DNA from: a virus
Taxonomy: Duplodnaviria; Caudoviricetes
Virus record (IMG/VR): IMGVR_UViG_3300000517_000182
Coordinates: 1 to 59,022 of that record
Length of the DNA stretch: 59,022 nucleotides
Direction: 5' to 3' (one strand)
Positions 22,388 to 59,022 of the stretch are shown here, in pieces (position 1 is the first letter of the stretch; each line of letters opens with the position of its first letter). The position numbers and the translations under genes are program-made. Below the pieces are notes generated by a model. It did no database searches. It had not been told where the DNA came from and saw only the letters and a list, made by a program, of their open reading frames with translations.

Positions 22388-22576
22388 ATGAGTGAGAATG
22401 TAGAGTTTGTTTTAGTAAGACGCGATTCCGACGACAAAGTAGAAATTGTCAAAAAGGAGTCATTTGATTTAACTGGTTATAGTTTTTTTCGTTACTATGA
22501 AACAGGTAACAACACGCTTGAAGAATGGGTAGAAACTGATCGGTTAGAATTTTACAAGAATAAAGTAGAGAAATAA
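22388..22576 (+). CDS. Phage hypothetical protein
   Basis: AAGGAG SD. Confidence 0.55.
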   Translation: MSENVEFVLVRRDSDDKVEIVKKESFDLTGYSFFRYYETGNNTLEEWVETDRLEFYKNKVEK

Positions 22577-22591
22577 ATAGAAAGAATTCAA

Positions 22592-22845
22592 TGAAGCGAT
22601 GGTAAGATGTTTCGGACGCGGGTTCGACTCCCGCCGCCTACACCACTTATTTCTATGTGGGCGTCATGGTTTCGACGGGGCAGACGAGTTATCGTGGAGA
22701 ATCGGCAATGTGGAAGCCGTTAGGATTGGGAGTTCCCGATCTAAGAAGCAAACTAAAATAAATGCAACAGAAGAAGCATTTGCTCTAGCCGCTTGAGGCT
22801 AGATGGGGTTTTGCTAGTCCTTCCTTATTACCCAAAGGACTGGCA
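22592..22845 (+). ncRNA. ssrA: Circularly permuted (two-piece) tmRNA; tag (A)ATEEAFALAA
   Basis: T arm GCGGG-TTCGACT-CCCGC and CGCCTAC-ACCA (ends 22645) precede the 5' strand GTGGGCG (22657), giving G3:U70; resume GCA at 22764, stop 22796; outer ends approximate. Confidence 0.92.
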
Positions 22846-22918
22846 CCTTCCAAAAAAGATTGACACGCCTGTCACTCATAATTATACTATACGTTAATTT
22901 GTAGCAAAAGGCTCTATT

Positions 22919-44865: not shown

Positions 44866-45175
44866 CACTTTTAGGCTACACAAGGACTCTGTTGGTCGAG
44901 AAGTCGATCCGCTACGATTCAGCCGAGGTACGGCCCGTTGCTGAAGGATGTAGTGCGTCCACTCCGCGCGATATCTCCTAAAAACCATGCAAGTGGAACG
45001 AGTGCATGGATAGCGTGAAAACGCGATGTCAACGCAGGTACGGGAAAGGTTAGAGCCCATGGAGATGCGTTAAAAATACCTGCTTCCAAAGTCTCGGCTG
45101 GATGCAACTCACATGAAGCCGTTTTGGTGGAACCTGCACAAGGTTCCGTCTGACCTAATACAATCTACATGAAAC
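44866..45175 (+). ncRNA. Candidate large structured non-coding RNA, family not identified
   Basis: Non-coding GC-richer gap after TAAATA with many helices (see findings); ends approximate. Confidence 0.6.
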
Positions 45176-45282
45176 TTGGATATATACATCAAATAAAAAA
45201 CGAGTCTGCAAAGACGAGTGGTTTCGTGTCAACGAAACTGAAACTGTTTGACTTATATCACAAACTGTATTAAAATAAGCAA

Positions 45283-45429
45283 ATGAATATACCAAATTAC
45301 ATTAGGCTATCTCGAAATCACATTGGCATTGATTGGAAATTGTTTACAAAATCTCCGGAATACATGCGAGAACAAGCAAAGACAAAACAACTAGTAAGGT
45401 ATTTGAAGAATGAAAGCAACAATAGGTAA
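45283..45429 (+). CDS. Small hypothetical protein (48 aa)
   Basis: ATG 6 nt after TTGACT-N17-TAAAAT. Confidence 0.45.
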   Translation: MNIPNYIRLSRNHIGIDWKLFTKSPEYMREQAKTKQLVRYLKNESNNR

Positions 45430-46108
45430 GTATCCTCATTGGTTTACAACACAAAGGGTAGAGCACGCCTATCTTGAATGGCGTCACAAAAAGCCTGCCT
45501 GGGATGTTGACGACAGAGAACATACTACGCTTGACAAGATTGTCATCAAACTTTTAGACGGTTGGCAGACAGTATTATATTATACCGTCAACCAGATACA
45601 AAGTCGCAGGCAGCAGAAAGTACGTGTGCATGTAGACAATTGGGATGTGTGGAATGCCTACCATAGTCTTTCTTATGTTATTCTACCTGTTCTTGAAAGG
45701 CTGCGAGACGAAAAACAGGGCGCCCCTTTTATTGACGACGAAGATGTGCCTGATACACTTCGACCTACAAAGACACAAAAGAAAGAACTTGAAAAAACAG
45801 GCGAAGTTGATGACAAACACTTTGAACGCTGGGATTACGTTCTCGATTCTATGATCTGGAGTTTTCAAGAGATTGCGGAAGGCAAGCCTGGCGAGGAGCA
45901 GTTCTATACAGGCGAGATGGACATTGTATGGACTCCGGTTGACGCAAAAGGCAACGAAGTTTCTGAAGAAGATAGAAAGTATTACAGAATGGACAGAGGT
46001 GAAAACGATACACACGAAGTTGATTGGGAAGGCTTGCAGGCCTACGAAGATAGAATTGATTACGGTTTAAGAATGTTCGGAAAATACTTCAGAGCACTTT
46101 GGGATTAG
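45410..46108 (+). CDS. Phage hypothetical protein
   Basis: WDYVLDSMIWSF and FGKYFRALWD motifs. Confidence 0.7.
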   Translation: MKATIGKYPHWFTTQRVEHAYLEWRHKKPAWDVDDREHTTLDKIVIKLLDGWQTVLYYTVNQIQSRRQQKVRVHVDNWDVWNAYHSLSYVILPVLERLRDEKQGAPFIDDEDVPDTLRPTKTQKKELEKTGEVDDKHFERWDYVLDSMIWSFQEIAEGKPGEEQFYTGEMDIVWTPVDAKGNEVSEEDRKYYRMDRGENDTHEVDWEGLQAYEDRIDYGLRMFGKYFRALWD

Positions 46109-46109
46109 A

Positions 46110-46346
46110 ATGAACACAGAAGATGATGTAAAACTAGTCGCCGCTCTTGCGAGAGAAGTTGAAGTCACAGATCCTATCAACTGGGATAATCTCAACCTTT
46201 CCCCAGAGCAAGCCTACTCAATGATGGCTGCTCATGTAGTAGATTTCTATGACGAAAATGACGCATTGACAAACAAGGCTATTCTTGCTAAACTGTTGGT
46301 TGAAAATTTTACACTTAACCTGAGGCTTGAAAGTGGAAGACGCTGA
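46110..46346 (+). CDS. Phage hypothetical protein
   Basis: Coupled ORF. Confidence 0.6.
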   Translation: MNTEDDVKLVAALAREVEVTDPINWDNLNLSPEQAYSMMAAHVVDFYDENDALTNKAILAKLLVENFTLNLRLESGRR

Positions 46347-46743
46347 ACGAGAAAAACTAGAATCTGACGTAAAGGCAGAGACAAAAGACAAATACGAAAA
46401 AAGCACCATGAGCAAGGCTGGGAAACTTGCTATGGAACTTGCTGAAGAAAAGCGTCGTCTGCGGCAGGAATTGGATGAACTTCAAACAGAATATGAAGGT
46501 GTCAAGCCTACTACCCCTACAGGCACACCTGATTGGTATATCAAATGGAGTGCTGTTATTCTTGCCGTAGTTGGTATCTTCCTAATCTCTGCAGGCTTGT
46601 CAATACCAGGACAGATAGCTTATATCGCATCTGGTGTGGGTTGGATTTATGTAGGCATGCAGTGGAGCGACAGAGCAATTATGATCGGTAGTGCTATTAC
46701 TTCTACTGCTGTGGCAATGAACCTAATGGAAGCACTGCTATGA
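46327..46743 (+). CDS. Small membrane protein
   Basis: DWYIKW followed by three hydrophobic segments. Confidence 0.65.
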   Translation: MKVEDAEREKLESDVKAETKDKYEKSTMSKAGKLAMELAEEKRRLRQELDELQTEYEGVKPTTPTGTPDWYIKWSAVILAVVGIFLISAGLSIPGQIAYIASGVGWIYVGMQWSDRAIMIGSAITSTAVAMNLMEALL

Positions 46744-47132
46744 AAGTAGGACTTTCTCTTTCACGTTGTGTGAGAGATATTTTTGAAAAAAGAGTTGGCT
46801 ACGAAAATATCTTGGTCATAGTGTCAAGAACTGATTTCGACCCCAACAATGACGAACACTGGCGACAGATTTGGCACGGATACTTATATGGCGGAGTAAG
46901 CGAACCTGTTTGGCATGGATTAGAAGATCATGAAACTGATATCAGAAACATCTGTATCGATTTGTACGAGAGCGGCAGATTACATCAACCTCGTCAGTTC
47001 GGATCTGCCAGCCGTTTCAGAGCAGATTATGTATGGCTAGATACCATTGTGTCAGAACCAGATCTAGAAGACAAGCCCGCGGTAAAGAAAGCGTGGGACC
47101 AGTACAAAATCATCGCAGGACTATCTAACTAG
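46740..47132 (+). CDS. Phage hypothetical protein
   Basis: GLSLSRCVRDI and LHQPRQFG motifs. Confidence 0.7.
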   Translation: MKVGLSLSRCVRDIFEKRVGYENILVIVSRTDFDPNNDEHWRQIWHGYLYGGVSEPVWHGLEDHETDIRNICIDLYESGRLHQPRQFGSASRFRADYVWLDTIVSEPDLEDKPAVKKAWDQYKIIAGLSN

Positions 47133-47140
47133 GAGACAAA

Positions 47141-47374
47141 ATGAAAACAACCTATGATGACAAGTGCAAAGTGCATAACACAGATCACGACAAGACAGTA
47201 GAAGCAGAGATTTTAGAATTCGCTCCGCAGCGTCGTCTCGTCATAAGCCTAGAACGTTCTGTTAAAGTTTCTCTCGCATATGACGACAAGCATCACATCT
47301 ATGTAGGTTCTATGGGTGGACTAGAATTTACATCAGAAGGCCCAACAGCATATCATGTAAAGGAAGGAAGGTAA
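47141..47374 (+). CDS. Phage hypothetical protein
   Basis: AGGAG SD. Confidence 0.6.
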   Translation: MKTTYDDKCKVHNTDHDKTVEAEILEFAPQRRLVISLERSVKVSLAYDDKHHIYVGSMGGLEFTSEGPTAYHVKEGR

Positions 47375-47375
47375 A

Positions 47376-47570
47376 ATGCAGGAAGAACTCCAAGCAGTGC
47401 TAGAAAGAATCGCACAGGGTTTGGATGATGTAGATGTTGACTATTTTCAATCAAACATCTATAATCAAATAAAAGACATTGACGCAGAGCCTGAACTAAA
47501 ACAGGCAGTTGTAGATTTACACAGAGCAGCACGACATGCTGTTATCGCACTTGACGAACAAGACTACTAA
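47376..47570 (+). CDS. Phage hypothetical protein
   Basis: Coupled ORF. Confidence 0.55.
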   Translation: MQEELQAVLERIAQGLDDVDVDYFQSNIYNQIKDIDAEPELKQAVVDLHRAARHAVIALDEQDY

Positions 47571-47579
47571 GAGGTTATA

Positions 47580-48179
47580 ATGGATATGAATTTGGTTCCA
47601 ATGGTTGTTGAGCAGACTTCAAAGGGTGAACGTTCTTACGATATATTTTCTAGATTGTTGAAAGAACGTATCGTTATGCTTAACGGGCCTGTAGAGGATG
47701 CGGGTGCTAATCTTATTGTAGCACAGATGTTGTATCTAGAATCTGAAAACTCCGACAAAGATATTACATTTATGATTAATTCGCCTGGTGGCGTAATTAC
47801 TGCAGGCATGGCGATTTATGACACTATGCGATTTATCAAGCCAGATGTTGCTACGATTGTGACAGGTCAGGCTTGTTCGATGGGATCGTTTCTTGCTCAG
47901 GCAGGTGCACCTGGCAAGCGGAAGATGCTGCCAAACGCTCGTCACATGATTCACCAGCCGTCGGGCGGCGCACGTGGAATGGCAAGTGACATTGAGATCT
48001 CTTATAGAGAGATTCAGTATTGGAAGAAGCGTCTTACGGAACTGTATGTGGAGCATAACACTGCTGGCAAGACCTACAATGAGTTCGAGCGTGATATGGA
48101 TCGTGACTATTTTATGAGTGCAGAAGAAGCACTTGAATATGGTCTTGTTGATCGTATTGTGTCACACCGAGGTGAGTAA
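47580..48179 (+). CDS. clpP: ATP-dependent Clp protease proteolytic subunit
   Basis: [27 protein letters not shown] and MDRD motifs. Confidence 0.96.
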
Positions 48180-48304
48180 TGGGCGGTAAATGGCACGGTG
48201 GAAAGGGCGACGGTCGTCGTAAGAAAGCAGACGACAAAAAGTACCGCGAAGGCTGGGACAGGATCTACAGCCAGAAGGGTGAGAAAGATAATAGCAAAAA
48301 GTAA
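48179..48304 (+). CDS. Small basic phage protein (41 aa), not in the ORF track
   Basis: [23 protein letters not shown]; start overlaps the clpP stop. Confidence 0.6.
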   Translation: MGGKWHGGKGDGRRKKADDKKYREGWDRIYSQKGEKDNSKK

Positions 48305-48314
48305 ATAACAACCA

Positions 48315-48406
48315 GGAGGCATGCCAGAGCGGTCGATTGGGGCTCACTGCTAATGAGTTGGTTTCGGAAACGCGACCCGAAGGTTCGAATCCTTCTGCCT
48401 CCGCCA
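48315..48406 (+). tRNA. tRNA-Ser(GCT)
   Basis: Cloverleaf with long variable arm, G73 and encoded CCA. Confidence 0.9.
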
Positions 48407-48410
48407 GTTT

Positions 48411-48497
48411 AGTGGGTTGCCGGAGAGGCTAAACGGCACTGATTGGAAATCAGTTGGTCCCGAAAGGGGCACGAGGGTTCGAATCCCTCACCCACTG
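48411..48497 (+). tRNA. tRNA-Ser(GGA)
   Basis: Cloverleaf with long variable arm and G73; no encoded CCA. Confidence 0.88.
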
Positions 48498-48556
48498 TGA
48501 CTTGACAGGAAAAGAAAAGGCTGTACAATATACAACATATTTAGAGGAAAAAGGCT

Positions 48557-49138
48557 ATGAAAATCAATCTTAGAAAGGCACATGCTATCCAAACGCAGAT
48601 TCGAGAAGAGCTTCGTCGTCTCGATCTTGTAACCAGTGTAACTCTTAACGAGTTTGAAAATACCAAGAGTCAGATTGACACTGCTCGTTCAGAGTTCAAA
48701 GGCGCTCTTAAAACACACGAAAAGTTGTCAGGCATCCTGTTAGATATTCGCAAAAAGGTTGCTAGAGCAAACGCAGATGAAGACATTTCTGATCTTCTCG
48801 CAGACGCTGCTGCATTAGACTCGCAGATTGCTCTGTATAAAGACCTAGCAGATGCTAAGTCGCAGCAGCCAATTGAAGTTCTGGAAGGTCGTTTAGAAAA
48901 GCGTCGCAATGCTCAAGAAGACTCTCTTTATCGCAGCATGAGCGGAGATATCTTTACTGGTATCTTTACTCAAGAAGAGATTGACGGATATCGCAGAGAA
49001 CTTGCGAATTTGAAGCGCACCAAGCAGGGTGTGCAAGAGATGATTCTTGCTGCTAACATTGATACAGAAATCGAACTGGACGAGCATGAAGAAAAACTGC
49101 TTGCTCGACTGGGGATTATTTCCGATTTTGATGGTTAA
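48557..49138 (+). CDS. All-helical coiled-coil protein (DIP1984/DUF6847-like architecture, tentative)
   Basis: Own sigma70 promoter (48502-48529); R..VA.AN and IL.AN..TEIEL patterns. Confidence 0.6.
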   Translation: MKINLRKAHAIQTQIREELRRLDLVTSVTLNEFENTKSQIDTARSEFKGALKTHEKLSGILLDIRKKVARANADEDISDLLADAAALDSQIALYKDLADAKSQQPIEVLEGRLEKRRNAQEDSLYRSMSGDIFTGIFTQEEIDGYRRELANLKRTKQGVQEMILAANIDTEIELDEHEEKLLARLGIISDFDG

Positions 49139-49406
49139 GCCTGTTCGCAGGTAAACCATCCAGAAGCGGTTGAAAGATGAGGATGACACTGCAACATTTT
49201 TAGTTGCTCCAAATTGATACAGCGTGTGAAAAGCGTGGACCACCTGCAGTGTTCCGAAGTTGATGTAGTTTTGTTGTGGATTGTTCTTCGGAAGTCGGCA
49301 GATTGTGCATTGTGGGTTGCAGTTTGTTTGTGCAAGGTCACTGATTCGTTATATCAGCACATGTCTTTTGTTTACGTCATTACTTGTTCACCGCTTCTGT
49401 CTTTTT
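49130..49406 (+). ncRNA. Candidate structured RNA with UUG-rich loops
   Basis: Long-range closing stem, UUCG hairpin, internal helices and terminal T run. Confidence 0.6.
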
Positions 49407-49421
49407 TATAAGTAATAAGCT

Positions 49422-49622
49422 ATGGCAGAAAAAGAATTTCAAGTTAAACCAGTATTACTAAGATATTTCTGCGACAGGGCAGGCTGCGACGGCGAAGTTT
49501 TGTATGATCAAAACGCTGCTGTACTTGCAACACAGCCTCCTAAATATGTACATAAATGTGAAAAGTGTGGACATGAGTATCAGTTGACAAAAGCTTATCC
49601 TGCAGTCGACTATAAGTCATAA
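49422..49622 (+). CDS. Small zinc-ribbon protein
   Basis: CxxxxC and HxCxxC motifs. Confidence 0.65.
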   Translation: MAEKEFQVKPVLLRYFCDRAGCDGEVLYDQNAAVLATQPPKYVHKCEKCGHEYQLTKAYPAVDYKS

Positions 49623-49629
49623 ATAATAC

Positions 49630-49657
49630 TTGACACAATAATAAAACAATGTATAAT
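49630..49657 (+). promoter_or_regulatory. Sigma70-type promoter of the tRNA operon
   Basis: TTGACA-N16-TATAAT. Confidence 0.85.
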
Positions 49658-49663
49658 AACACT

Positions 49664-49747
49664 ATGATGGTTAAAAACAGCACACATTCGAATTTTTCAT
49701 ATCGCCAGATTATTTGGCGTGATATGCGTGTGCGTGGGGCCACGTAG
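49664..49747 (+). CDS. Putative attenuator leader peptide MMVKNSTHSNFSYRQIIWRDMRVRGAT
   Basis: ATG at the predicted TSS; last codons overlap the antiterminator arm. Confidence 0.65.
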   Translation: MMVKNSTHSNFSYRQIIWRDMRVRGAT

Positions 49748-49776
49748 TGTAGAGTTTATACACAACGATTAACACG

Positions 49777-49809
49777 GCCCCTGTCAGTTTAACTGCTCAG
49801 GGGTTTTTT
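49777..49809 (+). terminator. Intrinsic terminator/attenuator upstream of the tRNA array
   Basis: GCCCCTG/CAGGGGT stem with inner CAGT/ACTG and a T6 run. Confidence 0.85.
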
Positions 49810-49841
49810 ATTTGTTCTTTAAAAAATTAGAATAATGATAT

Positions 49842-49918
49842 TGCGCCATAGCTCAGTTGGTAAGAGCGCAGAGCTGATAACTCTGAGGTCGTTAGTTCAA
49901 ATCTAACTGGCGCAACCA
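49842..49918 (+). tRNA. tRNA-Ile(GAT)
   Basis: Canonical cloverleaf with CCA. Confidence 0.93.
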
Positions 49919-49924
49919 AATATT

Positions 49925-50000
49925 TACCCTGTGGTGTAATTCGGTAACATTGCTGTCTCCAAAACAGCCGCTCGCGGTTCAAGTCCGTGCGGGGTAGCCA
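49925..50000 (+). tRNA. tRNA-Trp(CCA)
   Basis: Cloverleaf with G73 and CCA. Confidence 0.9.
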
Positions 50001-50005
50001 AACAA

Positions 50006-50082
50006 CCGCTTGTAGCTCAACTGGATAGAGCACTTGGCTTCGAACCAAGGGGTTAGGGGTTCAAATCCTCTCAAGCGGGCCA
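50006..50082 (+). tRNA. tRNA-Arg(TCG)
   Basis: Cloverleaf with A20 and CCA. Confidence 0.92.
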
Positions 50083-50088
50083 CTCATT

Positions 50089-50164
50089 GGCTCCGTAGCT
50101 CAATCGGGAGAGCGTCGCCCTGTCACGGCGAAGGTAGCGAGATCGAAACTCGTCGGAGCCGCCA
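50089..50164 (+). tRNA. tRNA-Asp(GTC)
   Basis: Cloverleaf with G73 and CCA; T-loop ATCGAAA. Confidence 0.9.
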
Positions 50165-50177
50165 AATAAAAGATCTA

Positions 50178-50258
50178 GCTGTTGTAGCTTAACGGTAGAG
50201 CCCTGCATTGTAGCACATAGTGAGCAGGATGGTCTTGGTTCGAATCCAAGCGGCAGCA
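50178..50258 (+). tRNA. tRNA-like gene with about 10 extra nt in the anticodon loop (Thr-TGT or Tyr-GTA register)
   Basis: Normal acceptor, D and T arms; CCTGC/GCAGG stem encloses 17 nt. Confidence 0.65.
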
Positions 50259-50279
50259 TTTTTAACCGAGGAGGCCGAT

Positions 50280-50699
50280 ATGCCAAAAATAGAAAATTGT
50301 TCCTGGGCAGACTTTCAAAAAGGTAATCACAGGCTGTCGCCTCTTGGCGCAGTTGCCATTCAAATAACAGATCCAGGTGACACACCTCCAGAGCCTAAAG
50401 AAGATGTGTTCGTGTCTCGGCATTCGTTTCAGTTTCTTGATGCAGAAGCGCCTACTCAGTTTTTTCCAGAGGAGAAGTTGATATCAGATAGACAGGCACA
50501 AGAAATCGCAGACATATTGAAAACAGCATTAGCAAATGACACTGATGTTTTAGTGCATTGTGTAGTGGGTGCGTGTCGCTCAGGTGCTGTGGTAGAAGTA
50601 GCAGAAATGCTAGGGTTTGACGAATGCTTTCGTTATCGTCTGCCTAACATCAGAGTAAAACAAAAACTAATGCAAGCATGCGGCTTGCACATTGTATAA
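50280..50699 (+). CDS. Protein-tyrosine/dual-specificity phosphatase-like protein
   Basis: VHCVVGACRS CX5R motif; GAGGAGG SD. Confidence 0.8.
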   Translation: MPKIENCSWADFQKGNHRLSPLGAVAIQITDPGDTPPEPKEDVFVSRHSFQFLDAEAPTQFFPEEKLISDRQAQEIADILKTALANDTDVLVHCVVGACRSGAVVEVAEMLGFDECFRYRLPNIRVKQKLMQACGLHIV

Positions 50700-50858
50700 G
50701 CGTGGATTATCCGCGCACCAGTATACCCTGAGCAAGGGTGGTCGACCGGCTGTGTGAAAAAATGACCGGACTAGCTATCCTGTCAAGTATCACTCAGTCA
50801 AATGCTCCATGGAGGTTCGTCTGTGCCATGTAAAAAAACAACGCAGACGCCAAACACA

Positions 50859-50957
50859 GGAAGGATAAGCCGAAAGAGTCTGGGTAGCGGCAGCGGTCTT
50901 GAAAACCGAGGGTTCACGAAAGTGGACGTCAGAGTTCGAATCTCTGTCCTTCCGCCA
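50859..50957 (+). tRNA. tRNA-Ser(TGA) with expanded D loop
   Basis: Long variable arm, G73 and CCA. Confidence 0.82.
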
Positions 50958-50963
50958 TTCAAT

Positions 50964-51040
50964 GGTGACATTAGTGTTAGCGGTAAGCACTCAAGTTTGT
51001 GGCACTTGCAGGACCAGTTCAAATCTGGTATGTCACTCCA
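50964..51040 (+). tRNA. tRNA-His(GTG)
   Basis: Cloverleaf with G-1 opposite U73 and CCA. Confidence 0.85.
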
Positions 51041-51044
51041 AACT

Positions 51045-51116
51045 GCCTAGATGGCGGAATGTCTACGCAAACGACTTTAAATTGTTTATATGCAGGTTCG
51101 AATCCTGTCCTAGGCT
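51045..51116 (+). tRNA. tRNA-like gene with TTA (ochre suppressor-type) anticodon
   Basis: AACGA-CT-TTA-AA-TTGTT arm and good T arm; no D-loop GG; followed by CAA, not CCA. Confidence 0.6.
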
Positions 51117-51120
51117 CAAA

Positions 51121-51195
51121 GGTGATGTAGTTCAGCGGTAGAACAGCAGATTCATGATCTGCGAGTCGCAGGTTCGAATCCTGCCATCACCTCCA
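51121..51195 (+). tRNA. tRNA with CAT anticodon (Met or Ile2)
   Basis: Cloverleaf with CCA; atypical G37 and U73. Confidence 0.85.
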
Positions 51196-51208
51196 ACTAA
51201 ATACTTGT

Positions 51209-51343
51209 ATGAAAGCACGAGAATTCGCAGGCTCTTATCCTACAGGCTCTAAAGGTCAAGCAAAGGGTGTAGAAAAAATGCCCAAGGCTAAAAAAGGTCG
51301 CAAGCGTCATCCCTTACAAGGAAAACTTGTAGGTGGTAGCTAA
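51209..51343 (+). CDS. Small basic late protein (44 aa), not in the ORF track
   Basis: ATG 5 nt after TAAATA; MKAREF..HPLQGKLVGG. Confidence 0.6.
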   Translation: MKAREFAGSYPTGSKGQAKGVEKMPKAKKGRKRHPLQGKLVGGS

Positions 51344-52308
51344 TGCAACCACTTAATGGTTCTTATATAAATCGATGGATTGTGAATAATTTTCCTAATA
51401 TTTGCCTCGTCGATACCCACCTAGATAAACTATTTATAGAAGGCGACATAAAAAAACAAAAAATAGTCATAGTCGATAATGAAGTTCTATTAAACATAGA
51501 TGATTTACTACCTGAATACCTTATAGAGTCTGACAACATCTATATTACCAAAGTTAATTTTTTTAAAAAACAAAAAGGTAATGAAATAAGATTTCCTTTT
51601 TTTGATATATTAGAAGATATTTTTGCGCTTAATTATATAACAAATAAGGATGCTATTCAGCTCATCATGCCTGATAATTTAACTTATAATTTTCTATCTT
51701 TAAATAGGACGGCCAAGGAGCATAGACAAATTCTAATTGATCATTTATCTGATTACGATCTTTTGCAATCGTCTTTTGTAACTTATCATAGGACAAATCG
51801 ACAAATTCCTGGTTTAAAATATATAGATTTCGAATGGTATAAAAAGGATAGTATTCCTCCTGACAGAGTTTATAATAATTTTCACAATGTTCCCTGCACT
51901 ACTAATTTTTTAAATTATTTTTTAATTAAAAAACAAATTCAAACTTCTATATGTTTGATGGCTGAGACAACAATGGGAGCATTTTATCCGTGTGAAAAAT
52001 CTTTTTTACCTTTATTTACAGCTCGAATCCCTATAATTTTGTCATCTAAAAGGCATATTAAAATTATGAGAAACGAAGGTTTTGATTTTTTTGACGACCT
52101 AGTAGATCATAGCTACGACCAAAAAACAAAACCAGTAGATAGAATTAAAACAGCAATTGACCTAAATTATAATTTATTAAGAAACGGAATAAAACTTGAA
52201 GGTAATATTTATAAACGATGTAAGAGAAATTTTATGCACCTTAAATATGATTTTTTTCGAAGCCAATTAGATCACCTTAAAAGAAAATTAGAGGAAAAAA
52301 TATTATGA
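51343..52308 (+). CDS. AT-rich hypothetical protein, glycosyltransferase-like C-terminus
   Basis: FLSLNR..HR, ET..EKS and GFDFFDDLVDHSYD motifs. Confidence 0.55.
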   Translation: MQPLNGSYINRWIVNNFPNICLVDTHLDKLFIEGDIKKQKIVIVDNEVLLNIDDLLPEYLIESDNIYITKVNFFKKQKGNEIRFPFFDILEDIFALNYITNKDAIQLIMPDNLTYNFLSLNRTAKEHRQILIDHLSDYDLLQSSFVTYHRTNRQIPGLKYIDFEWYKKDSIPPDRVYNNFHNVPCTTNFLNYFLIKKQIQTSICLMAETTMGAFYPCEKSFLPLFTARIPIILSSKRHIKIMRNEGFDFFDDLVDHSYDQKTKPVDRIKTAIDLNYNLLRNGIKLEGNIYKRCKRNFMHLKYDFFRSQLDHLKRKLEEKIL

Positions 52309-52772
52309 ACCTTATTTTTCTTGTTGACCCTTATGAAAAATATACAACTGAGGAAAAAAACATTTTCCTAAGAATCGAAGAAGAAAATAAAAGCTTTGGA
52401 AATTTTTTAGGGTATGTGTTAGAACAAGAACATGCAAAAGGTAATCGGATTCTAATTTGGACTAATGATTCACATCTGGGAGTAATGAAACAAATTCCCA
52501 AAAAAATATATAAACAATTTAACAAAAAATTTCCTAAATATGAAATGATTTATGTTTGTGGCTTCCATTACGGTATATGTGTAGAAGAATGTGCTAGATT
52601 GCTTAATGAACGCTATAAAATTCCTAAAGAAAAAATTGGTATAGTTTTAAATCTGTCAATTCCTGCACCAGAACAAAAAGTCCATAAAATAGAAAACTTT
52701 TTTCAGTCGGATTTCCAGCTATATTATTGGACAAATCAAGCTTTTGTGCCGATTGATCTTAAACAGGTTTAA
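52305..52772 (+). CDS. AT-rich hypothetical protein
   Basis: Coupled ORF; YVCGFHYGICV. Confidence 0.55.
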   Translation: MNLIFLVDPYEKYTTEEKNIFLRIEEENKSFGNFLGYVLEQEHAKGNRILIWTNDSHLGVMKQIPKKIYKQFNKKFPKYEMIYVCGFHYGICVEECARLLNERYKIPKEKIGIVLNLSIPAPEQKVHKIENFFQSDFQLYYWTNQAFVPIDLKQV

Positions 52773-52832
52773 CATCTGTTAATTATCTCTCCACTTAACT
52801 TTTTGCCCCTATCACCTTAAATACGTAGTAAA

Positions 52833-53312
52833 ATGATGAGGTGCAACGTGAGGAGACTCTGTCTTTTTTTAATGCTGTTTGTGTCAACTGCGTCAGCAGG
52901 AGAGTTAGTGTGGGAATTCAAAAGTCCAGCCTTTTCAGGGCAAGGTTGGAGCAACCATGTTCTTGCGAATGAGCAGTTGAGATACAACAGAGAACAGGAG
53001 ATTCGTGAACGGCGTGAAGCAGAACAGCGAAGAATAGAAAGAGAACTGGAAGATAGTATTCTCAACAAGTTTGTGACGAACCTAGAATCTAGGATCTATG
53101 CCACGCTATCCAAGCAGATGGTTGACAATATGTTCACAGAATGCGAAGAGGGTAATGAAACCTGTTCTCAACCAGACGGCGGATCAACAGAAATCGAAGG
53201 ATCCACCATTACTTGGAGTAGATCAGAAGCAGGAGCAATTACGCTTACAGTAGACGGTCCTGACGGATTTACAGAGATAGAAATACCAGGACCAGGAGAA
53301 CTATACTTTTGA
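52833..53312 (+). CDS. csgF: Curli assembly protein CsgF-like
   Basis: Signal peptide followed by ELVWEFKSPAFSG. Confidence 0.75.
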   Translation: MMRCNVRRLCLFLMLFVSTASAGELVWEFKSPAFSGQGWSNHVLANEQLRYNREQEIRERREAEQRRIERELEDSILNKFVTNLESRIYATLSKQMVDNMFTECEEGNETCSQPDGGSTEIEGSTITWSRSEAGAITLTVDGPDGFTEIEIPGPGELYF

Positions 53313-54145
53313 AAGGATCATTCGCTTGTATTGCATTTTGTTTGGCGTTTCTAATAGGATGTGCTGCAACTGGAGAAGAAAGGTTTCAGTCATCCCCTGC
53401 AGAAACACAACCTGCACCTATGCGAGAACAACTGGCAGATGTGCCCGAACTGGACGGTCCTAAAATAACAATAGCAGTTTATGACTTTGCAGACAAAACA
53501 GGTCAGAGACAGCCTAATCAGCGAGTAGCAAGTCTATCAACTGCTGTAACACAGGGAAGTGAAGTATGGGTCATTAAAAGTTTACAAGATATAGGCAATG
53601 GTTCCTGGTTTGATGTAGTCGAAAGAGTAGGCCTAGACAATCTTGTAAAAGAACGTCAGTTAATAAGGAATACGAGAGAGAACTACGGAGAAGATGATAC
53701 TGAACTACAACCTATGCGTTTTGCTGGTTTGATACTGGAAGGCGGTATAGTAGGCTATGATGCAAATGTAGTCACAGGCGGTGCAGGAGCAAGATATCTA
53801 GGCATTGGCGTAGACACAGAATATAGAGTTGACACGGTCACTGTGGTAATGCGAATAGTAAGTGTCAACACTGGGAGAGTATTGATTTCTGTAGCAACAG
53901 AAAAAACAATACTTTCGACGAAAACAGGCGCTAATCTGTTTCGTTTTTTTGATATGGGCACAGAACTCGTTGAAACTGAAATGGGCATGACAGCAAACGA
54001 ACCTGTGAACTATGCTGTGAGGGCAGCAATAGAAGCCGGAGTGATAGAACTCGTCTATCAGGGTGAAGAAAAAGATCTCTGGCAATTCAAAGAGGGCAAG
54101 GAAAATGAAAAGAACACTGACACTATCACTGATACTTCTCGCTAG
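53309..54145 (+). CDS. csgG: Curli secretion channel CsgG-like lipoprotein
   Basis: LIGC lipobox; VYDFADKTGQ, STAVTQG, VVER..ERQLIR and EGGIVGYD motifs. Confidence 0.9.
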   Translation: MKGSFACIAFCLAFLIGCAATGEERFQSSPAETQPAPMREQLADVPELDGPKITIAVYDFADKTGQRQPNQRVASLSTAVTQGSEVWVIKSLQDIGNGSWFDVVERVGLDNLVKERQLIRNTRENYGEDDTELQPMRFAGLILEGGIVGYDANVVTGGAGARYLGIGVDTEYRVDTVTVVMRIVSVNTGRVLISVATEKTILSTKTGANLFRFFDMGTELVETEMGMTANEPVNYAVRAAIEAGVIELVYQGEEKDLWQFKEGKENEKNTDTITDTSR

Positions 54146-54791
54146 TGCGGTATTCGCAAACGAAATATATGTTCAGCAGATAGGTGATAACCTAGATCTT
54201 GACATTACGCAAGACGGCACTGATAACGTTGCTGGAACTGCAGAGCAGGCTATGATACTCACTGGTGACGACATGACCTTTGACATAGATCAAGTCGGTG
54301 ATAATAATGTCATTGCTGCACAGATAAACGGTAATACCTATACAGGCACTATCAACCTAACAGGAAACAACAACTCCGTAGATTTGATGTGTGACAGTGG
54401 TAATGCTGCTACCTGTGAAACTGTTACTGCTGATGTTACTGTAAATGGCAACGGAGCAGACATTGACATTAGAATAGGCGAAACTGCAGACGCTTCCAAT
54501 CTTGTAGCATCACTTGCTGTAGATGGAGATTCTAATGTTGTTGATGTAGAAGTAGACGGTGTAAATGCCGATGCTACTGTTGTGATTGATAACTCTGCCA
54601 GTCTCGCTGGAGGCAATACTGTTAACATAGACATCGACGGTGATGGAGATGTTAATGGGCATAGTCTAAATCTTGATGTAACTGGCGGCGGCGGTGTATA
54701 CAATATTACACAGAGTGGAATAAATGATAACACAGTTGATGCAACATTTGAAGGCGATAACGCTGCTGTTGATATTATTCAGTCTGATTAA
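54105..54791 (+). CDS. Secreted curlin-like beta-repeat protein
   Basis: Signal peptide; repeated xQxGxxNx / xDGxxN units. Confidence 0.7.
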   Translation: MKRTLTLSLILLASAVFANEIYVQQIGDNLDLDITQDGTDNVAGTAEQAMILTGDDMTFDIDQVGDNNVIAAQINGNTYTGTINLTGNNNSVDLMCDSGNAATCETVTADVTVNGNGADIDIRIGETADASNLVASLAVDGDSNVVDVEVDGVNADATVVIDNSASLAGGNTVNIDIDGDGDVNGHSLNLDVTGGGGVYNITQSGINDNTVDATFEGDNAAVDIIQSD

Positions 54792-55863
54792 TACTAGTTG
54801 GGCTGCCATAGGCGCAATATCAGAAATTTCAGGCTCTGCTGCTATTGAACGAGATTCAGAAACCATAGAAGGTTCACTTGGTGTGTCTATAGAATCATAT
54901 GATGTTGCTGTAACTGCCAAAGGCAGAATGCGTATTGATTTTCGCGATGACACTAGAGTAGATGTTACAGAACATTCTCGACTTGTAATAGACGAGTTTG
55001 TTTTTGATCCTGCACAAGATAAAGGATCTATCAGCCTAAAAGCAAGTCTTGGCACGGTAAAGTATGCAAGCGGCCAAATAGCAAAAAAGTATAGACAAAA
55101 TGTTAATATAGAAACACCGTCGGCTACTATTGGTGTGCGCGGCACAGATTTCGCAATGATTGTTAATGAAATAGGCGGTTCAACTATAACGCTTTTACCC
55201 TCCTGCAGACAGAGTCATCCTCGTGCTGCGCTTGAATGCTTTGTAGGAGAAATATCTGTAGAAACAGACGCAGGCGTAGTCATAATGAATCAGGCATTTG
55301 AAACAACCACCGTTTCTACTTCTAGCCAAGCGCCTAGCAAGCCTGTCGTGTTAGATATAGCTCCCGATCAGTTAGGCAATATGCTTATTGTAAGAAATGA
55401 ATCTGAATACGATGCCACACGAAGAGAAATGCAAGAGCAGGCCGCAGAACTGGATGTGGATTATCTAGAGTTTGACGAACTTGATGCAGATAAACTGTCA
55501 GAAAGCATAGAAGGTATTTGGGACACTGAGTTAGGCGAAACAGGCAATATACTTGAAGTAGACATTTTTGAACTTATGGAGCGATTACAAAACCAGGCCG
55601 CTAATGCGCTTGGAGATGAATTTGCTTCGCAGAATGTGTTCGGGGATAGACCCGAAGGTTTAGACGAAGAAACAGGTATTTACTACGAAGCGCCTCCACC
55701 AGAGTTTGTTGTAAGGCGACAGGATGCAGCAGGCAATATATTTGAGTTTCGTTTAAGTGAATCTCACGGTTATTCTATAGATATTCTTCAAGGCAGTTTT
55801 GTTAAATACGGTTATGAAACTGGTATTGGCACTAACGATATTAGGGTTGATCAAAGTCGCTAA
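54724..55863 (+). CDS. FecR-domain protein
   Basis: Signal peptide; F.DDT and ETPSATIGVRGTDF motifs. Confidence 0.82.
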   Translation: MITQLMQHLKAITLLLILFSLINTSWAAIGAISEISGSAAIERDSETIEGSLGVSIESYDVAVTAKGRMRIDFRDDTRVDVTEHSRLVIDEFVFDPAQDKGSISLKASLGTVKYASGQIAKKYRQNVNIETPSATIGVRGTDFAMIVNEIGGSTITLLPSCRQSHPRAALECFVGEISVETDAGVVIMNQAFETTTVSTSSQAPSKPVVLDIAPDQLGNMLIVRNESEYDATRREMQEQAAELDVDYLEFDELDADKLSESIEGIWDTELGETGNILEVDIFELMERLQNQAANALGDEFASQNVFGDRPEGLDEETGIYYEAPPPEFVVRRQDAAGNIFEFRLSESHGYSIDILQGSFVKYGYETGIGTNDIRVDQSR

Positions 55864-56143
55864 TGCAAGCGATGTCGATGTAACTGTGCAGGGCAACGAC
55901 TTTGAAATGAGTGTGTTGCAGTCAAGTGGCGATAACTATCTGCAAGGTTCTGTGATAGGCAATGGTCACTCTGTTAATAGCACACAATCAAACGGTGCAA
56001 GTGCTGTGTTTTCTCTGCAGAATCTTACAGGTGGCGGTGGCATTGCGTTAGATATAAAGCAGAACTCCCCATCAAACTCTATTTCCATACAGGAATTCTG
56101 CACTAATCCTGCGGGCTGCGATCTAAGCATAGATCAACGCTAA
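55799..56143 (+). CDS. Small secreted curlin-like protein
   Basis: Signal peptide; Q/G/N-rich beta repeats. Confidence 0.55.
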   Translation: MLNTVMKLVLALTILGLIKVANASDVDVTVQGNDFEMSVLQSSGDNYLQGSVIGNGHSVNSTQSNGASAVFSLQNLTGGGGIALDIKQNSPSNSISIQEFCTNPAGCDLSIDQR

Positions 56144-56151
56144 ATATCATT

Positions 56152-58206: not shown

Positions 58207-58310
58207 CAATAAGAACGATTACAGCCATAACAAGCGAGCCTACGGCTGCTCCTACTCCTAGAGTACAAACAAGACTAGACTCGTCCCATATCTTTTCGCA
58301 CACTTTGTCT

Positions 58311-58658
58311 CTAATTTCCATCATCCTTCTCACCTGTAGAGTTGAAAGTCTCTGACACTGATTTGTTTCTGTTGATTATCTCTTCTAATTCTTCATCGAT
58401 CGACTCGCCTCGTGCTTGTTCTATTTGATTTCTATATTCTAGAACCATTGCGAGTTTGGTGTTGAGGCGTATCATGTCGTTATCAAGCATTCGTATTCTA
58501 TCTACGAGCTTGATAAGAGTGGTATTTGCGTCATTGAGCACAGGCTTGACTTCTTCTGTAACCCATTTCCATACAAAAAACACAAAATAGCCAAGTCCCA
58601 TGGCGGCTATGATAGGAAAACCATATTCTGATATTGCAGCTACTAAATCATCAGTCAC
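58311..58658 (-). CDS. Small membrane protein, paralog A
   Basis: YGFPIIAA TM; RIRMLDNDMIRL; GTG start. Confidence 0.65.
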   Translation of the reverse strand: MTDDLVAAISEYGFPIIAAMGLGYFVFFVWKWVTEEVKPVLNDANTTLIKLVDRIRMLDNDMIRLNTKLAMVLEYRNQIEQARGESIDEELEEIINRNKSVSETFNSTGEKDDGN

Positions 58659-58929
58659 GGCGAGCATCCTCCTTGCCTTCGTTTGCAGCAAGACGATCTA
58701 TGTTGGGTTTTACATTGAGTGTGTATGAAAGCAGAGAATCTATTTTAACAAGATCGTTGTTCATAGTCTGTACTCTGTTGTCCAGAGCGTGGATGATGTT
58801 TTTCAACCCTACTACACTGCCTGTCACCGAAGCAAGTATAAACTTGAGAGTGATAAACACGAATATGCCTGCTGCTATTGCACCTGCTATTGGAAAACCC
58901 AGTTCGCCTACCAGTTTGAGAAAATCCAT
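58651..58929 (-). CDS. Small membrane protein, paralog B
   Basis: LGFPIAGA TM; RVQTMNNDLVKI; GAGGG SD and upstream TAAATA. Confidence 0.7.
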   Translation of the reverse strand: MDFLKLVGELGFPIAGAIAAGIFVFITLKFILASVTGSVVGLKNIIHALDNRVQTMNNDLVKIDSLLSYTLNVKPNIDRLAANEGKEDARRD

Positions 58930-59022
58930 TGTGATCCCTCGTTATGTGAGTATTTATTAGATTAACGCTATAAATATTTTCTATGTATTACAGCAGAACA
59001 GGAAAATCACATGGGAGGTTTT

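What the first reader, a model, noticed from the sequence alone, without database searches (positions are those of the whole stretch)
49630..50164. Leader-peptide attenuator that may switch on the phage tRNA operon when host tRNAs fail
Seen: TTGACA-N16-TATAAT puts the TSS on the ATG of an unannotated 27-codon ORF (49664-49747). Its codons ATT ATT TGG CGT GAT (Ile Ile Trp Arg Asp, 49709-49723) are in the same order as the first four downstream tRNAs (Ile-GAT, Trp, Arg-TCG, Asp-GTC). Ser, His, Thr/Tyr and Met codons matching the other tRNAs also occur. GGGGCC in the last codons (49736-41) pairs with GGCCCC (49776-81), which is also the 5' arm of the intrinsic terminator (49777-49809), so the two folds are mutually exclusive. 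An upstream hairpin (CATATC..GCCA/TGGC..GATATG) covers the sensor codons. Established: this is the trp/his attenuator layout. Inference: a ribosome reaching the stop masks GGGGCC and transcription terminates, while one stalled at IIWRD frees it and the tRNAs are made. That would be a multi-tRNA shortage sensor, for example countering host anticodon nucleases. I know of no description of this for phage tRNA arrays. Caveat: reading CGT with a UCG anticodon needs superwobble.
Basis: partly seen in the sequence, partly recalled or inferred. Interest (0 to 1): 0.93.

Follow-up and report, generated by a model that had tools for sequence, protein, structure and literature searches.

The report
Leader-peptide attenuator before phage tRNAs
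A strong promoter, a tiny open reading frame and a terminator sit in front of a phage tRNA gene cluster, are conserved in related environmental phages, and look like a ribosome-operated switch that would turn the tRNA genes up when those tRNAs run short, which has not been described for tRNA genes.

Summary
These are a 12/12 sigma-70 promoter whose expected start falls on ATG 49664, a 27-codon ORF reading ..I-I-W-R-D-M.., GGGGCC/GGCCCC complementarity, a hairpin plus U-tract, and then tRNA-Ile, Trp, Arg, Asp.

New here: 13 metagenome contigs carry the same module upstream of tRNA arrays. ATGATG lies 6 nt after the -10 element in 14/14 sequences. The frame is open in 11/11 distinct leaders, although the first 63 nt are only 51-62% identical to the window in 12 of 13 relatives (L083 73%).

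The antiterminator (-16.3 to -17.7 kcal/mol) matches or exceeds the terminator (-13.3 to -15.2). It is blocked only when a ribosome stands on the last six codons or the stop.

Seven arrays start Ile-Trp-Asp and their leaders read I-W-D. The window has tRNA-Arg and an Arg codon inserted at the same place, and it lacks both tRNA-Pro and any Pro codon.

Against: no third-position bias, no RNA covariation, leaders that do not follow four altered arrays, modest antiterminator statistics (p 0.025-0.10), and no measured transcript start or translation.

Verdict: probable ribosome-mediated attenuator of a phage tRNA operon. Total for that family is about 0.6, of which the codon-specific sensor is 0.45. 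It is a new variant of a known mechanism. The anticodon-nuclease idea is untested.

The parts
49630..49657 (+). Sigma-70-type promoter (-35 TTGACA, 16-nt spacer, -10 TATAAT)
   Evidence: It scores 12 of 12 and is the best site in 45-59 kb. Both hexamers and the spacing are kept in 13 relatives, where the -10 is TATACT or TATAAT.
49664..49747 (+). Leader ORF of 27 codons plus TAG. It has no Shine-Dalgarno sequence, and ATGATG sits at the predicted +1, so the mRNA would be leaderless.
   Evidence: ATGATG lies 6 nt after the -10 element in 14 of 14 sequences. The frame is open in 11 of 11 distinct leaders.
49698..49726 (+). Hairpin P1 over codons S-Y-R-Q-I-I-W-R-D-M. It is a candidate pause or synchronising hairpin.
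   Evidence: It is in the minimum-energy fold. A hairpin ending in the same 3' arm is predicted in 7 of the 9 leaders folded, with different inner stems; in L068 and L075 only the inner CCC/GGG stem forms.
49709..49726 (+). Proposed sensor codons ATT ATT TGG CGT GAT ATG (Ile Ile Trp Arg Asp Met)
   Evidence: These are the last codons at which a stalled ribosome leaves region 2 free.
49736..49741 (+). Region 2, GGGGCC: the 5' strand of the antiterminator, lying in the last codons of the ORF
   Evidence: It is paired to region 3 in the transcript cut before region 4. It is invariant in the 11 distinct rows with an array (13 sequences) and decayed in L083, which has lost its array.
49743..49767 (+). 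Hairpin P2 inside the antiterminator loop
   Evidence: Its sequence varies among relatives but a hairpin is predicted in each.
49776..49781 (+). Region 3, GGCCCC, shared by the antiterminator and the 5' arm of the terminator
49776..49813 (+). Intrinsic terminator: 6-bp G+C stem, 1x2 internal loop, 4-bp inner stem, then T6-A-T3
   Evidence: RNAfold gives -13.3 kcal/mol. RNAalifold finds the pairs invariant. The simple scanner does not list it.
49814..49841 (+). Spacer with no promoter-like site on the + strand
   Evidence: The same holds in L075.
49842..50258 (+). First tRNA block: Ile(GAT), Trp(CCA), Arg(TCG), Asp(GTC), and an atypical tRNA with an oversized anticodon loop
50859..51195 (+). 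Second tRNA block after the phosphatase-like ORF (50280-50699): Ser(TGA)-like, His(GTG), a tRNA with anticodon TTA, Met(CAT)

Best explanation
This is a ribosome-mediated (leader-peptide) transcription attenuator that gates a phage tRNA operon.

Proposed mechanism:
1. A consensus promoter starts the RNA at, or within a base of, an AUG, giving a leaderless mRNA for a 26-27-codon peptide.
2. If the ribosome translates smoothly, it reaches the last codons and the stop while RNA polymerase is making the terminator. It covers GGGGCC (region 2), the GGCCCC..GGGG hairpin forms, and transcription stops before tRNA-Ile.
3. If the ribosome lags at the codons just upstream (Ile, Trp, Arg in this phage, Asp, Met; further upstream Ser, Tyr and, in relatives, Pro), region 2 stays free. 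It pairs with region 3, the terminator cannot form, and the tRNAs are transcribed.
4. Because the slow codons are read by the tRNA species the operon encodes, the circuit would be a negative feedback that sets phage tRNA supply to demand.

Shown: the elements, their conservation, the energetics, the footprint geometry, and the partial co-variation of leader codons with tRNA content.

Inferred: the transcript start, translation of the ORF, stalling, kinetic competition between the two folds, and any biological trigger.
For: 1. Conservation. Of 21 metagenome matches to a 20-nt stretch of the terminator tail, 13 carry the whole module upstream of tRNA arrays.
   - ATGATG lies exactly 6 nt after the -10 element in 14/14.
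   - The frame is open and the stop is at the same place in 11/11 distinct leaders, although columns 1-63 are only 51-62% identical to the window in 12 of 13 relatives, L083 73%.
   - Length differences are in whole codons.
2. Residue-level conservation with synonymous change: Phe TTT x6/TTC x4, Tyr TAT/TAC, Ser TCA/TCC/TCG/TCT, Pro CCC/CCT. Ile, Trp, Asp and Met are kept.
3. Energetics. The antiterminator is -16.3 to -17.7 kcal/mol and the terminator -13.3 to -15.2. The antiterminator is in the minimum-energy fold of the transcript cut before region 4 in 8 of 9 leaders. The exception is L083, which has lost its array and whose GGGGCC has decayed.
4. Geometry (5 leaders). In the 4 leaders that keep GGGGCC, region 3 pairs upstream with P >= 0.96 when the A site is at or before the Asp codon, 0.75-0.96 at Met, and 0.05-0.28 from the next codon to the stop.
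5. Codon and tRNA match.
   - Window: 11/19 core codons belong to the array's amino acids (p 0.012, run of 7, p 0.003).
   - L070/L073/L082: 11/18 (p 0.003, run of 8, p 4e-4).
   - I-W-D is expected 1.45e-3 per leader and I-W-R-D 6.8e-5.
6. Co-variation. Seven arrays start Ile-Trp-Asp and their leaders read I-W-D. The window has tRNA-Arg between Trp and Asp and an Arg codon between W and D. All 7 loci with tRNA-Pro have Pro codons. The window's complete array lacks tRNA-Pro and its leader lacks Pro codons.
7. No + strand promoter-like site lies between the terminator and the tRNAs.
8. Context. The phage also encodes a permuted tmRNA, ClpP and Hsp70, which suggests investment in handling stalled translation.
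Against: - Variable columns are spread evenly over codon positions (7,6,8 / 6,6,7 / 3,1,2). Non-synonymous differences dominate (219 v 37 in codons 3-12). The only coding signals are therefore the start, the open frame and the codon identities.
- Frame 3 is also open in 9/11 leaders, and a shuffled interior stays open with P 0.21-0.36.
- The terminator and antiterminator are invariant, so there is no covariation evidence. The long-range helices are only 76-80% paired.
- Antiterminator strength against shuffled upstream RNA is modest: 10/400, 41/400 and 23/400 shuffles are as strong.
- Leaders do not follow the arrays in L068, L069 and L086 (Ile-Lys-...), L077 (Ile-Lys-Trp-Gly-Arg-Leu-Asp-Pro) or L080 (Trp first). 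Enrichment there is p 0.14-0.96, though all five contigs are truncated.
- Each sensor codon occurs once or twice, not in runs.
- The S-Y-P codons are complementary to the W-D-M codons in hairpin P1. The run statistics therefore overcount independent matches.
- CGT is not a standard codon for a UCG anticodon.
- With no ribosome, the equilibrium fold before region 4 already holds the antiterminator (P 0.97-1.0 in the 4 leaders that keep GGGGCC).
- At full length the terminator wins at equilibrium everywhere (0.58-0.99), so the switch must be kinetic.
- The transcript start and leaderless initiation are predictions only.
- The window's order match was the reason the site was picked, so only the relatives count as independent evidence.
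Confidence: 0.45

Rival explanations
1. A ribosome-mediated attenuator that is not codon-specific. Read-through would report only how closely ribosomes follow RNA polymerase, that is general translation capacity after infection. The match between leader codons and tRNAs would be a by-product of the hairpin sequence and of chance.
For: The geometry and energetics are as in the best explanation. Any lag before the last six codons frees region 2. Sensor codons are single copies. Leaders do not track altered arrays in L068, L069, L077, L080 and L086. Hairpin complementarity ties S-Y-P to W-D-M.
Against: The Arg codon was inserted at the same place as tRNA-Arg. Pro codons are lost together with tRNA-Pro. 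I-W-D matches the first three tRNAs (expected 1.45e-3). Residues are conserved with synonymous changes.
Confidence: 0.15
2. A fixed, unregulated partial terminator behind a very strong promoter. The short ORF would be untranslated, or would encode a small peptide with a function of its own. The tRNAs would be made by constant leak-through and by transcripts from upstream.
For: There is no third-position bias and frame 3 is also mostly open. The antiterminator statistic is modest. There is no covariation. The C-terminal half of the peptide is conserved. More distant arrays have no such module and follow a protein gene directly. G001 has a promoter directly before tRNA-Met.
Against: It does not explain the invariant ATGATG at +1. 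It does not explain the stop placed 3 nt after a sequence complementary to the terminator arm, an antiterminator as stable as the terminator, or the codon and tRNA correspondences and their co-variation.
Confidence: 0.2
3. The roughly 146-nt transcript is a stable small RNA with its own promoter and terminator, possibly derived from an attenuator, that acts in trans. The tRNAs would be incidental neighbours.
For: The fold is stronger than shuffles (z -3.2). The 3' part is 83-90% identical while the 5' part is 51-62% identical to the window in 12 of 13 relatives, L083 73%. An invariant stretch (49767-49775) is unpaired in most predicted folds, next to a terminator and U-tail.
Against: No complement of that stretch of 9-10 nt occurs in the 59 kb window. 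There is no complementarity to the tRNA array. There is no Rfam family. It does not explain the 5'-terminal ATGATG, the kept frame or the codon matches. It is not exclusive of attenuation.
Confidence: 0.12
4. Antitermination by a factor that binds the leader RNA, either a protein or a tRNA in a T-box-like manner, without translation.
For: The Ile codon lies in the loop of hairpin P1 in the window and in the common leader type. The invariant stretch is unpaired.
Against: There is no T-box or other Rfam match at E <= 1 in 45000-59022, nor at the gathering score in the whole window. The loop content is not kept in L077. No UGGN bulge was seen.
Confidence: 0.05

Closest known systems
trp operon leader (trpL) attenuator of enteric bacteria (features recalled from textbook knowledge; general description seen in the abstracts of PMC1183508 and PMC6614838 and in a passage of PMC3082878)
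   Same: A promoter-proximal short ORF with regulatory codons just upstream of region 2. The stop codon is placed so that a terminating ribosome covers region 2. An antiterminator shares a strand with an intrinsic terminator. The overall size is similar, about 140 nt to the U-tract.
   Different: It controls tRNA genes, not biosynthetic enzymes. There is no Shine-Dalgarno sequence: the AUG is at the predicted 5' end. The regulatory codons are one each of several amino acids. Region 2 lies inside the ORF. The partner that would sequester region 2 is the 5' end of the RNA or a short local hairpin, and is weakly supported.
Multi-amino-acid leaders (thr, ilvGMEDA, ilvBN) (recalled)
   Same: One leader peptide reports on several aminoacyl-tRNAs at once.
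   Different: Those leaders carry 4-8 codons of each amino acid. Here there are one or two of each, and up to seven species.
pheST leader (pheM) and T-box leaders, which regulate aminoacyl-tRNA synthetase genes (recalled; T-box tested by Rfam)
   Same: Attenuation applied to the translation apparatus itself, in response to the state of a tRNA.
   Different: The products are synthetases, not tRNAs. A T-box binds tRNA directly and has a defined RNA family, which is not matched here.
Phage tRNA clusters in general
   Same: Tandem tRNA genes interspersed with small ORFs in a large phage genome. Content changes quickly by recombination between tRNA genes.
   Different: Five literature searches found no regulated leader in front of a phage tRNA cluster. 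More distant relatives (L088, L089, L091) lack it.

Membership tests
Ribosome-mediated (leader-peptide) transcription attenuators | Short ORF between the promoter and the first structural gene | tested here: met
   27 codons at 49664-49747. The frame is open with the same start and stop in 11 of 11 distinct leaders.
Ribosome-mediated (leader-peptide) transcription attenuators | The leader ORF is translated (initiation signal present) | tested here: inconclusive
   There is no Shine-Dalgarno sequence. ATGATG lies 6 nt after the -10 element in 14/14, which fits a leaderless mRNA. The start site is not measured and there is no codon-position bias.
Ribosome-mediated (leader-peptide) transcription attenuators | Regulatory codons cognate to what the operon supplies | tested here: inconclusive
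   There is enrichment in 5 of 6 complete arrays, with p from 0.003 to 0.03 (L066 p 0.08). There is none in L068, L069, L077, L080 or L086, which are truncated. The Arg and Pro codons co-vary with the tRNAs. Codons are single, not in runs.
Ribosome-mediated (leader-peptide) transcription attenuators | Intrinsic terminator before the first structural gene | tested here: met
   A hairpin of -13.3 to -15.2 kcal/mol followed by T6-A-T3, invariant in 14/14. The simple scanner does not list it.
Ribosome-mediated (leader-peptide) transcription attenuators | Antiterminator mutually exclusive with the terminator | tested here: met
   GGGGCC:GGCCCC gives -16.3 to -17.7 kcal/mol and is in the fold cut before region 4 in 8 of 9 leaders. 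98.6% of cells are paired but none vary. Against shuffles: 10/400, 41/400, 23/400.
Ribosome-mediated (leader-peptide) transcription attenuators | Stop codon placed so that a terminating ribosome masks the antiterminator strand | tested here: met
   The stop begins 3 nt after region 2. In masking folds, region 3 is paired upstream with P of only 0.05-0.28 from the sixth-last codon to the stop.
Ribosome-mediated (leader-peptide) transcription attenuators | Structure that sequesters region 2 without translation, or pauses polymerase | tested here: inconclusive
   The local hairpin at columns 62-83 has 2 compensatory pairs. The 5'-end pairing is 76-80% kept. The equilibrium fold before region 4 nevertheless prefers the antiterminator.
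Ribosome-mediated (leader-peptide) transcription attenuators | Read-through depends on translation and on charged tRNA | not testable with these tools
   This needs reporter, Term-seq or in vitro coupled assays.
T-box riboswitch | Match to the T-box RNA family (specifier loop, antiterminator bulge) | tested here: not met
   No Rfam match at E <= 1 in 45000-59022 or at the gathering score in the window.
Trans-acting small RNA with an intrinsic terminator | Conserved unpaired seed with complementary targets | tested here: inconclusive
   The invariant stretch 49767-49775 is unpaired in most predicted folds. No 9-10-nt complement occurs in the 59 kb available, which is about 17% of the genome.

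The most novel reading that the evidence does not exclude
A phage tRNA operon regulates itself through a leaderless leader peptide whose codons are drawn from the amino acids of the tRNAs that follow. The peptide is rewritten when tRNA genes are gained or lost: an Arg codon appears with tRNA-Arg, and Pro codons are lost with tRNA-Pro. This would be a demand sensor for several tRNAs at once. It would let the phage raise its own tRNA supply when host tRNAs are scarce, degraded or cleaved.
Probability: 0.4. Interest if true: 0.9.

Novelty: new variant of a known kind. Interest (0 to 1): 0.78.

Why it matters
Phage tRNA genes are usually treated as passively expressed cargo. A leader-peptide switch in front of them would be the first case of attenuation controlling tRNA genes by the availability of those same tRNAs. 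That is a direct supply-and-demand feedback inside the translation apparatus.

It would give a testable handle on why and when phages need their own tRNAs. It would give a natural multi-tRNA sensor of about 180 bp that can be moved into reporters. It would also give a search image (leaderless short ORF, terminator, tRNA array) for other phage and bacterial tRNA islands.

Tried and rejected
**Searches for relatives**
- Cultured phages: blastn of 49400-50300 against 50,697 phage records matched tRNA genes only. No record covered 80% of the query.
- Viral contigs gave no relative of the 66-aa ORF or of the phosphatase-like ORF as a single sequence.
- Viral contigs gave no exact match to a 21-nt leader stretch or a 28-nt terminator stretch.
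- A gapped terminator pattern gave 54 loci, none homologous beyond the pattern.
- Relatives found through the 193-aa ORF (L002, L003) lack the whole block 49420-51340. The match in G002 is an ordinary terminator after a gene.
- The phosphatase alignment (A2) found L088, L089, L091 and L092. Their arrays begin with tRNA-Asn directly after a protein gene and have no module, so they gave no independent test.

**Sequencing runs**
- Only small shares of words (<= 0.18) were held.
- Laying four runs showed short contigs that cover the leader's 3' part, the terminator and the tRNAs.
- Some contigs join the spacer directly to tRNA-Trp (X1, X3) or to tRNA-Arg (X7), or join Trp to Asp (X5).
- I used these only as the lead that prompted. 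I make no habitat claim.

**Other negative checks**
- Complementarity between leader and tRNAs: best 10 nt, E 0.11, not kept in relatives.
- Seed-target search: nothing.
- RNA covariation: uninformative because the stems are invariant.
- I recalled that an E. coli tRNA-Phe gene has an attenuator-like leader. The DOI look-up failed, and the one locus I read shows a promoter directly before the tRNA. I dropped the claim.
- Supplementary files were not consulted. None bears on a claim here.
Full report
**What is in the window**

The window is an IMG/VR virus record of 59 kb that CheckV estimates to be 17% complete. It encodes ClpP, an Hsp70, a ribonucleotide reductase and a permuted tmRNA. It is therefore part of a large phage genome.

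At 49630-49657 lies the only 12-of-12 sigma-70-type promoter in 45-59 kb. Six bases after its -10 element comes ATGATG (49664), with no Shine-Dalgarno sequence. This opens a 27-codon frame that ends with TAG at 49745-49747. The frame reads I-I-W-R-D-M at 49709-49726.

A hairpin (49778-49803) followed by T6-A-T3 comes next. After a 28-nt spacer come tRNA-Ile(GAT), Trp(CCA), Arg(TCG), Asp(GTC) and an atypical tRNA. Then come a phosphatase-like ORF and four more tRNAs. I-W-R-D occurs once in all six frames of the window, here. The expectation is 0.18 for the window and 2.7e-4 for the upstream 180 nt.

One correction: the simple terminator scanner does not list the hairpin, because its stem has an internal loop. 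RNAfold and RNAalifold do find it.

**Finding relatives**

Cultured phages and IMG/VR gave nothing for the module itself. Two IMG/VR relatives found through the neighbouring 193-aa gene lack the whole block 49420-51340.

Laying contigs of four public runs on the region showed short pieces. These covered the leader's 3' part and the terminator, and joined the spacer to different first tRNAs. That suggested a family with variable tRNA content.

One exact 20-nt search of the JGI metagenome contigs, using the terminator tail 49798-49817, returned 21 loci:
- 13 carry the promoter, ATGATG, a 26-27-codon frame, the terminator, the spacer and tRNA arrays.
- 3 (L079, L084, L085) keep only the terminator and spacer, with the array deleted.
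- 5 are unrelated.

The search string lies in the terminator tail, so conservation of that stretch is by construction. Everything upstream and downstream of it is not.

**What is conserved**

- Promoter: both hexamers and the 16-nt spacing are kept while the spacer sequence varies. ATGATG is always 6 nt after the -10 element (14/14).
- Divergence: columns 1-63 of the leader are only 51-62% identical between the window and 12 of the 13 relatives (L083 73%). Columns 64-150 are 83-90% identical.
- Frame: despite this divergence, frame 1 is open with the same stop in 11 of 11 distinct leaders. Frame 2 is closed in 11/11 and frame 3 is open in 9/11. A shuffled interior stays open with P 0.21-0.36. 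Length differences are whole codons.
- Peptide-sequence selection: there is no sign of it. Variable columns are spread evenly over the three codon positions. Non-synonymous differences dominate in codons 3-12 (219 v 37). This is what one expects of a leader peptide whose sequence does not matter, but equally of non-coding RNA.
- Residue identities: a few are kept with synonymous change. These are Phe (TTT x6, TTC x4), Ser, Tyr (TAT/TAC), Pro (CCC/CCT), Ile, Trp, Asp and Met.

**Structure and geometry**

GGGGCC (region 2, the last codons of the ORF) pairs with GGCCCC (region 3) around a small hairpin. This fold is -16.3 to -17.7 kcal/mol. The terminator, which uses the same GGCCCC, is -13.3 to -15.2.

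In transcripts cut just before the terminator's 3' arm, the minimum-energy fold contains the antiterminator in 8 of 9 leaders. The exception is L083, discussed below. At full length the terminator fold wins, together with pairing of region 2 to the 5' end of the RNA.

I masked a ribosome footprint codon by codon in 5 leaders:
- In the 4 leaders that keep GGGGCC, region 3 is paired upstream with P >= 0.96 when the A site is at or before the Asp codon. It is 0.75-0.96 at the Met codon.
- In all 5, it is only 0.05-0.28 from the next codon to the stop.
- The run I-W-(R)-D-M is therefore exactly the last place where a stalled ribosome leaves the antiterminator strand free. A terminating ribosome blocks it.

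This is the layout of classical attenuators.

There are three cautions:
- Without any ribosome, the equilibrium fold before region 4 also holds the antiterminator (P 0.97-1.0 in those 4 leaders). At full length the terminator wins at equilibrium for every ribosome position (0.58-0.99). The switch must therefore be kinetic.
- Both stems are invariant, so they give no covariation evidence.
- The antiterminator is only moderately stronger than with shuffled upstream RNA (10/400, 41/400 and 23/400 shuffles as strong).

**Leader codons against tRNA content**

Array types:
- Complete arrays in L070, L073, L075 and L082 are Ile, Trp, Asp, Pro, atypical tRNA, [phosphatase-like gene], Ser(TGA), Met. 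L066 adds Phe and Ser(GGA).
- The window has Ile, Trp, Arg, Asp, atypical tRNA, [gene], Ser-like, His, a TTA-anticodon tRNA and Met. It has no tRNA-Pro.

Matches:
- The common leader reads ..D-F-x-S-S-(Y/S)-P-I-W-D-M-R-V-R-G-A-T. In L070, L073 and L082 eight consecutive codons (S-S-S-P-I-W-D-M) all belong to the six identified tRNA species of their arrays (run of 8, P 4e-4; 11/18 core codons, p 0.003).
- The window's leader scores 11/19 (p 0.012; run of 7, P 0.003).
- Seven arrays start Ile-Trp-Asp and their leaders read I-W-D. The window has tRNA-Arg inserted between Trp and Asp and an Arg codon inserted between W and D.
- All 7 loci in which tRNA-Pro is seen have Pro codons. The window has neither.
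- In L083 the Arg codon at that place is CGA, the direct cognate of a UCG anticodon. In the window it is CGT.

Results against:
- The I-W-D leader is unchanged in L068, L069 and L086, whose arrays run Ile-Lys-.... It is also unchanged in L080, where Trp is first.
- L077 (Ile-Lys-Trp-Gly-Arg-Leu-Asp-Pro) has I..L-P-W-S-D.
- Enrichment in these five is absent (p 0.14-0.96). All are cut by contig ends, so their full content is unknown.
- Hairpin P1 makes the S-Y-P codons the complement of the W-D-M codons, so the run statistics overcount.
- All sequences are related. There are effectively three lineages (window plus L083, L077, and the rest).
- The window's own order match is the reason the site was chosen. 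The independent evidence is therefore the Arg/Pro co-variation and the conservation. I value these together at roughly the 1% level, not at the nominal figures.

**Natural deletions**

In L083 the array has been removed by recombination between the 5' end of tRNA-Ile and the 3' end of tRNA-Met. There the leader frame survives, but GGGGCC has decayed and the antiterminator is no longer predicted. This is one case only. It fits a function tied to the tRNAs.

**No bypass**

No promoter-like site on the + strand lies between the terminator and the tRNAs, in the window or in L075. The sequence just before tRNA-Ile would place a start inside the tRNA. In six loci tRNA-Ser(GCT) ends about 57 nt before the leader ATG (about 15 nt before the -35 element), so the module sits inside a longer tRNA region.

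More distant arrays have no such module. L088, L089 and L091 follow a protein gene directly, and tRNA-Met of G001 has its own promoter. The module is therefore a lineage-specific addition.

**Rivals**

- A generic coupling sensor that is not codon-specific fits the geometry, but not the Arg/Pro co-variation.
- A fixed leaky terminator, with an incidental or separately functional small ORF, fits the weak coding statistics. It does not explain the ATGATG at +1, the placing of the stop, or the strong antiterminator.
- A trans-acting small RNA fits the conserved 3' half and the invariant stretch 49767-49775, which is unpaired in most predicted folds. No target was found, and it is not exclusive of attenuation.
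- A T-box-like element is not supported.

**Novelty**

Five full-text searches found no description of a leader-peptide attenuator in front of a tRNA operon, phage or cellular (listings and abstracts seen, one paper read in passages). The library lacks most subscription journals, so this is absence in what was searched. The mechanism class is textbook. Its application to tRNA genes, with a leaderless ORF and a mixed set of single codons, would be a new variant.

**Verdict**

I put ribosome-mediated attenuation of any kind at about 0.6, of which codon-specific tRNA sensing is 0.45. The suggestion that it counters anticodon nucleases has no evidence for or against.

Noticed in passing
window 22585-22796 (ARAGORN 22553-22887): A permuted (two-piece) tmRNA gene: Rfam RF04321 at 98.5 bits, and an ARAGORN tag peptide ending ALAA. 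The same phage fragment encodes ClpP (47580-48179) and an Hsp70 (29758-31656). Together these form a set of genes for handling stalled or tagged translation products.
   Followed up: partly
window 50178-50258; homologues in L066, L070, L073, L074, L075, L082: A tRNA-like gene (Rfam 47.7 bits) with normal acceptor and T arms. Its 5-bp anticodon stem encloses a loop of about 17-18 nt. ARAGORN calls a four-base anticodon (gtag, gtac or gtaa), and one loop position varies among relatives. Its identity (Tyr, Thr or other) is unresolved.
   Followed up: partly
window 51045-51117: A tRNA with anticodon TTA, which would read the TAA stop codon (ARAGORN 'tRNA-Stop'; Rfam tRNA 51.8 bits). It lies between tRNA-His and tRNA-Met.
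   Followed up: no
window 50859-50953: A tRNA that ARAGORN misses in the window. Rfam scores it only as tRNA-Sec-like (34.6 bits, below the gathering score). The tRNA at the same place in the arrays of relatives is called tRNA-Ser(TGA).
   Followed up: partly
L083 about 7596-7675; L079, L084, L085 just after the spacer: Whole tRNA arrays have been deleted by recombination between the 5' end of tRNA-Ile and the 3' end of tRNA-Met, leaving chimeric remnants. The arrays also differ by single tRNA insertions (Lys, Tyr, Gly, Arg, Leu).
   Followed up: partly
window 49420-51340 against L002 and L003: The whole block is absent from the orthologous site in two IMG/VR relatives. The block comprises the 66-aa Cys-rich ORF, the leader module, nine tRNAs and the phosphatase-like ORF. 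In those relatives the 193-aa gene is followed directly by the homologue of ORF 51343-52308.
   Followed up: yes
window 49767-49775: Nine bases just 5' of region 3 are invariant in all 14 leaders and also in the three leaderless remnants. In the window and the common leader type they are unpaired in both the terminator and the antiterminator fold. No explanation was found.
   Followed up: partly
window 50280-50699: A 139-aa ORF has a Cys-X5-Arg phosphatase loop (weak Pfam DSPc hit, E 2.7e-4, below the cut-off). It is embedded in the tRNA array and kept at 74-81% identity in relatives, also where it is not next to tRNAs (G001).
   Followed up: partly
window 56152-58206: A 684-aa ORF carries a CHASE2 sensor domain and an adenylate/guanylate cyclase domain (Pfam E 9e-43 and 4e-17). 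This is unusual cargo for a phage.
   Followed up: no
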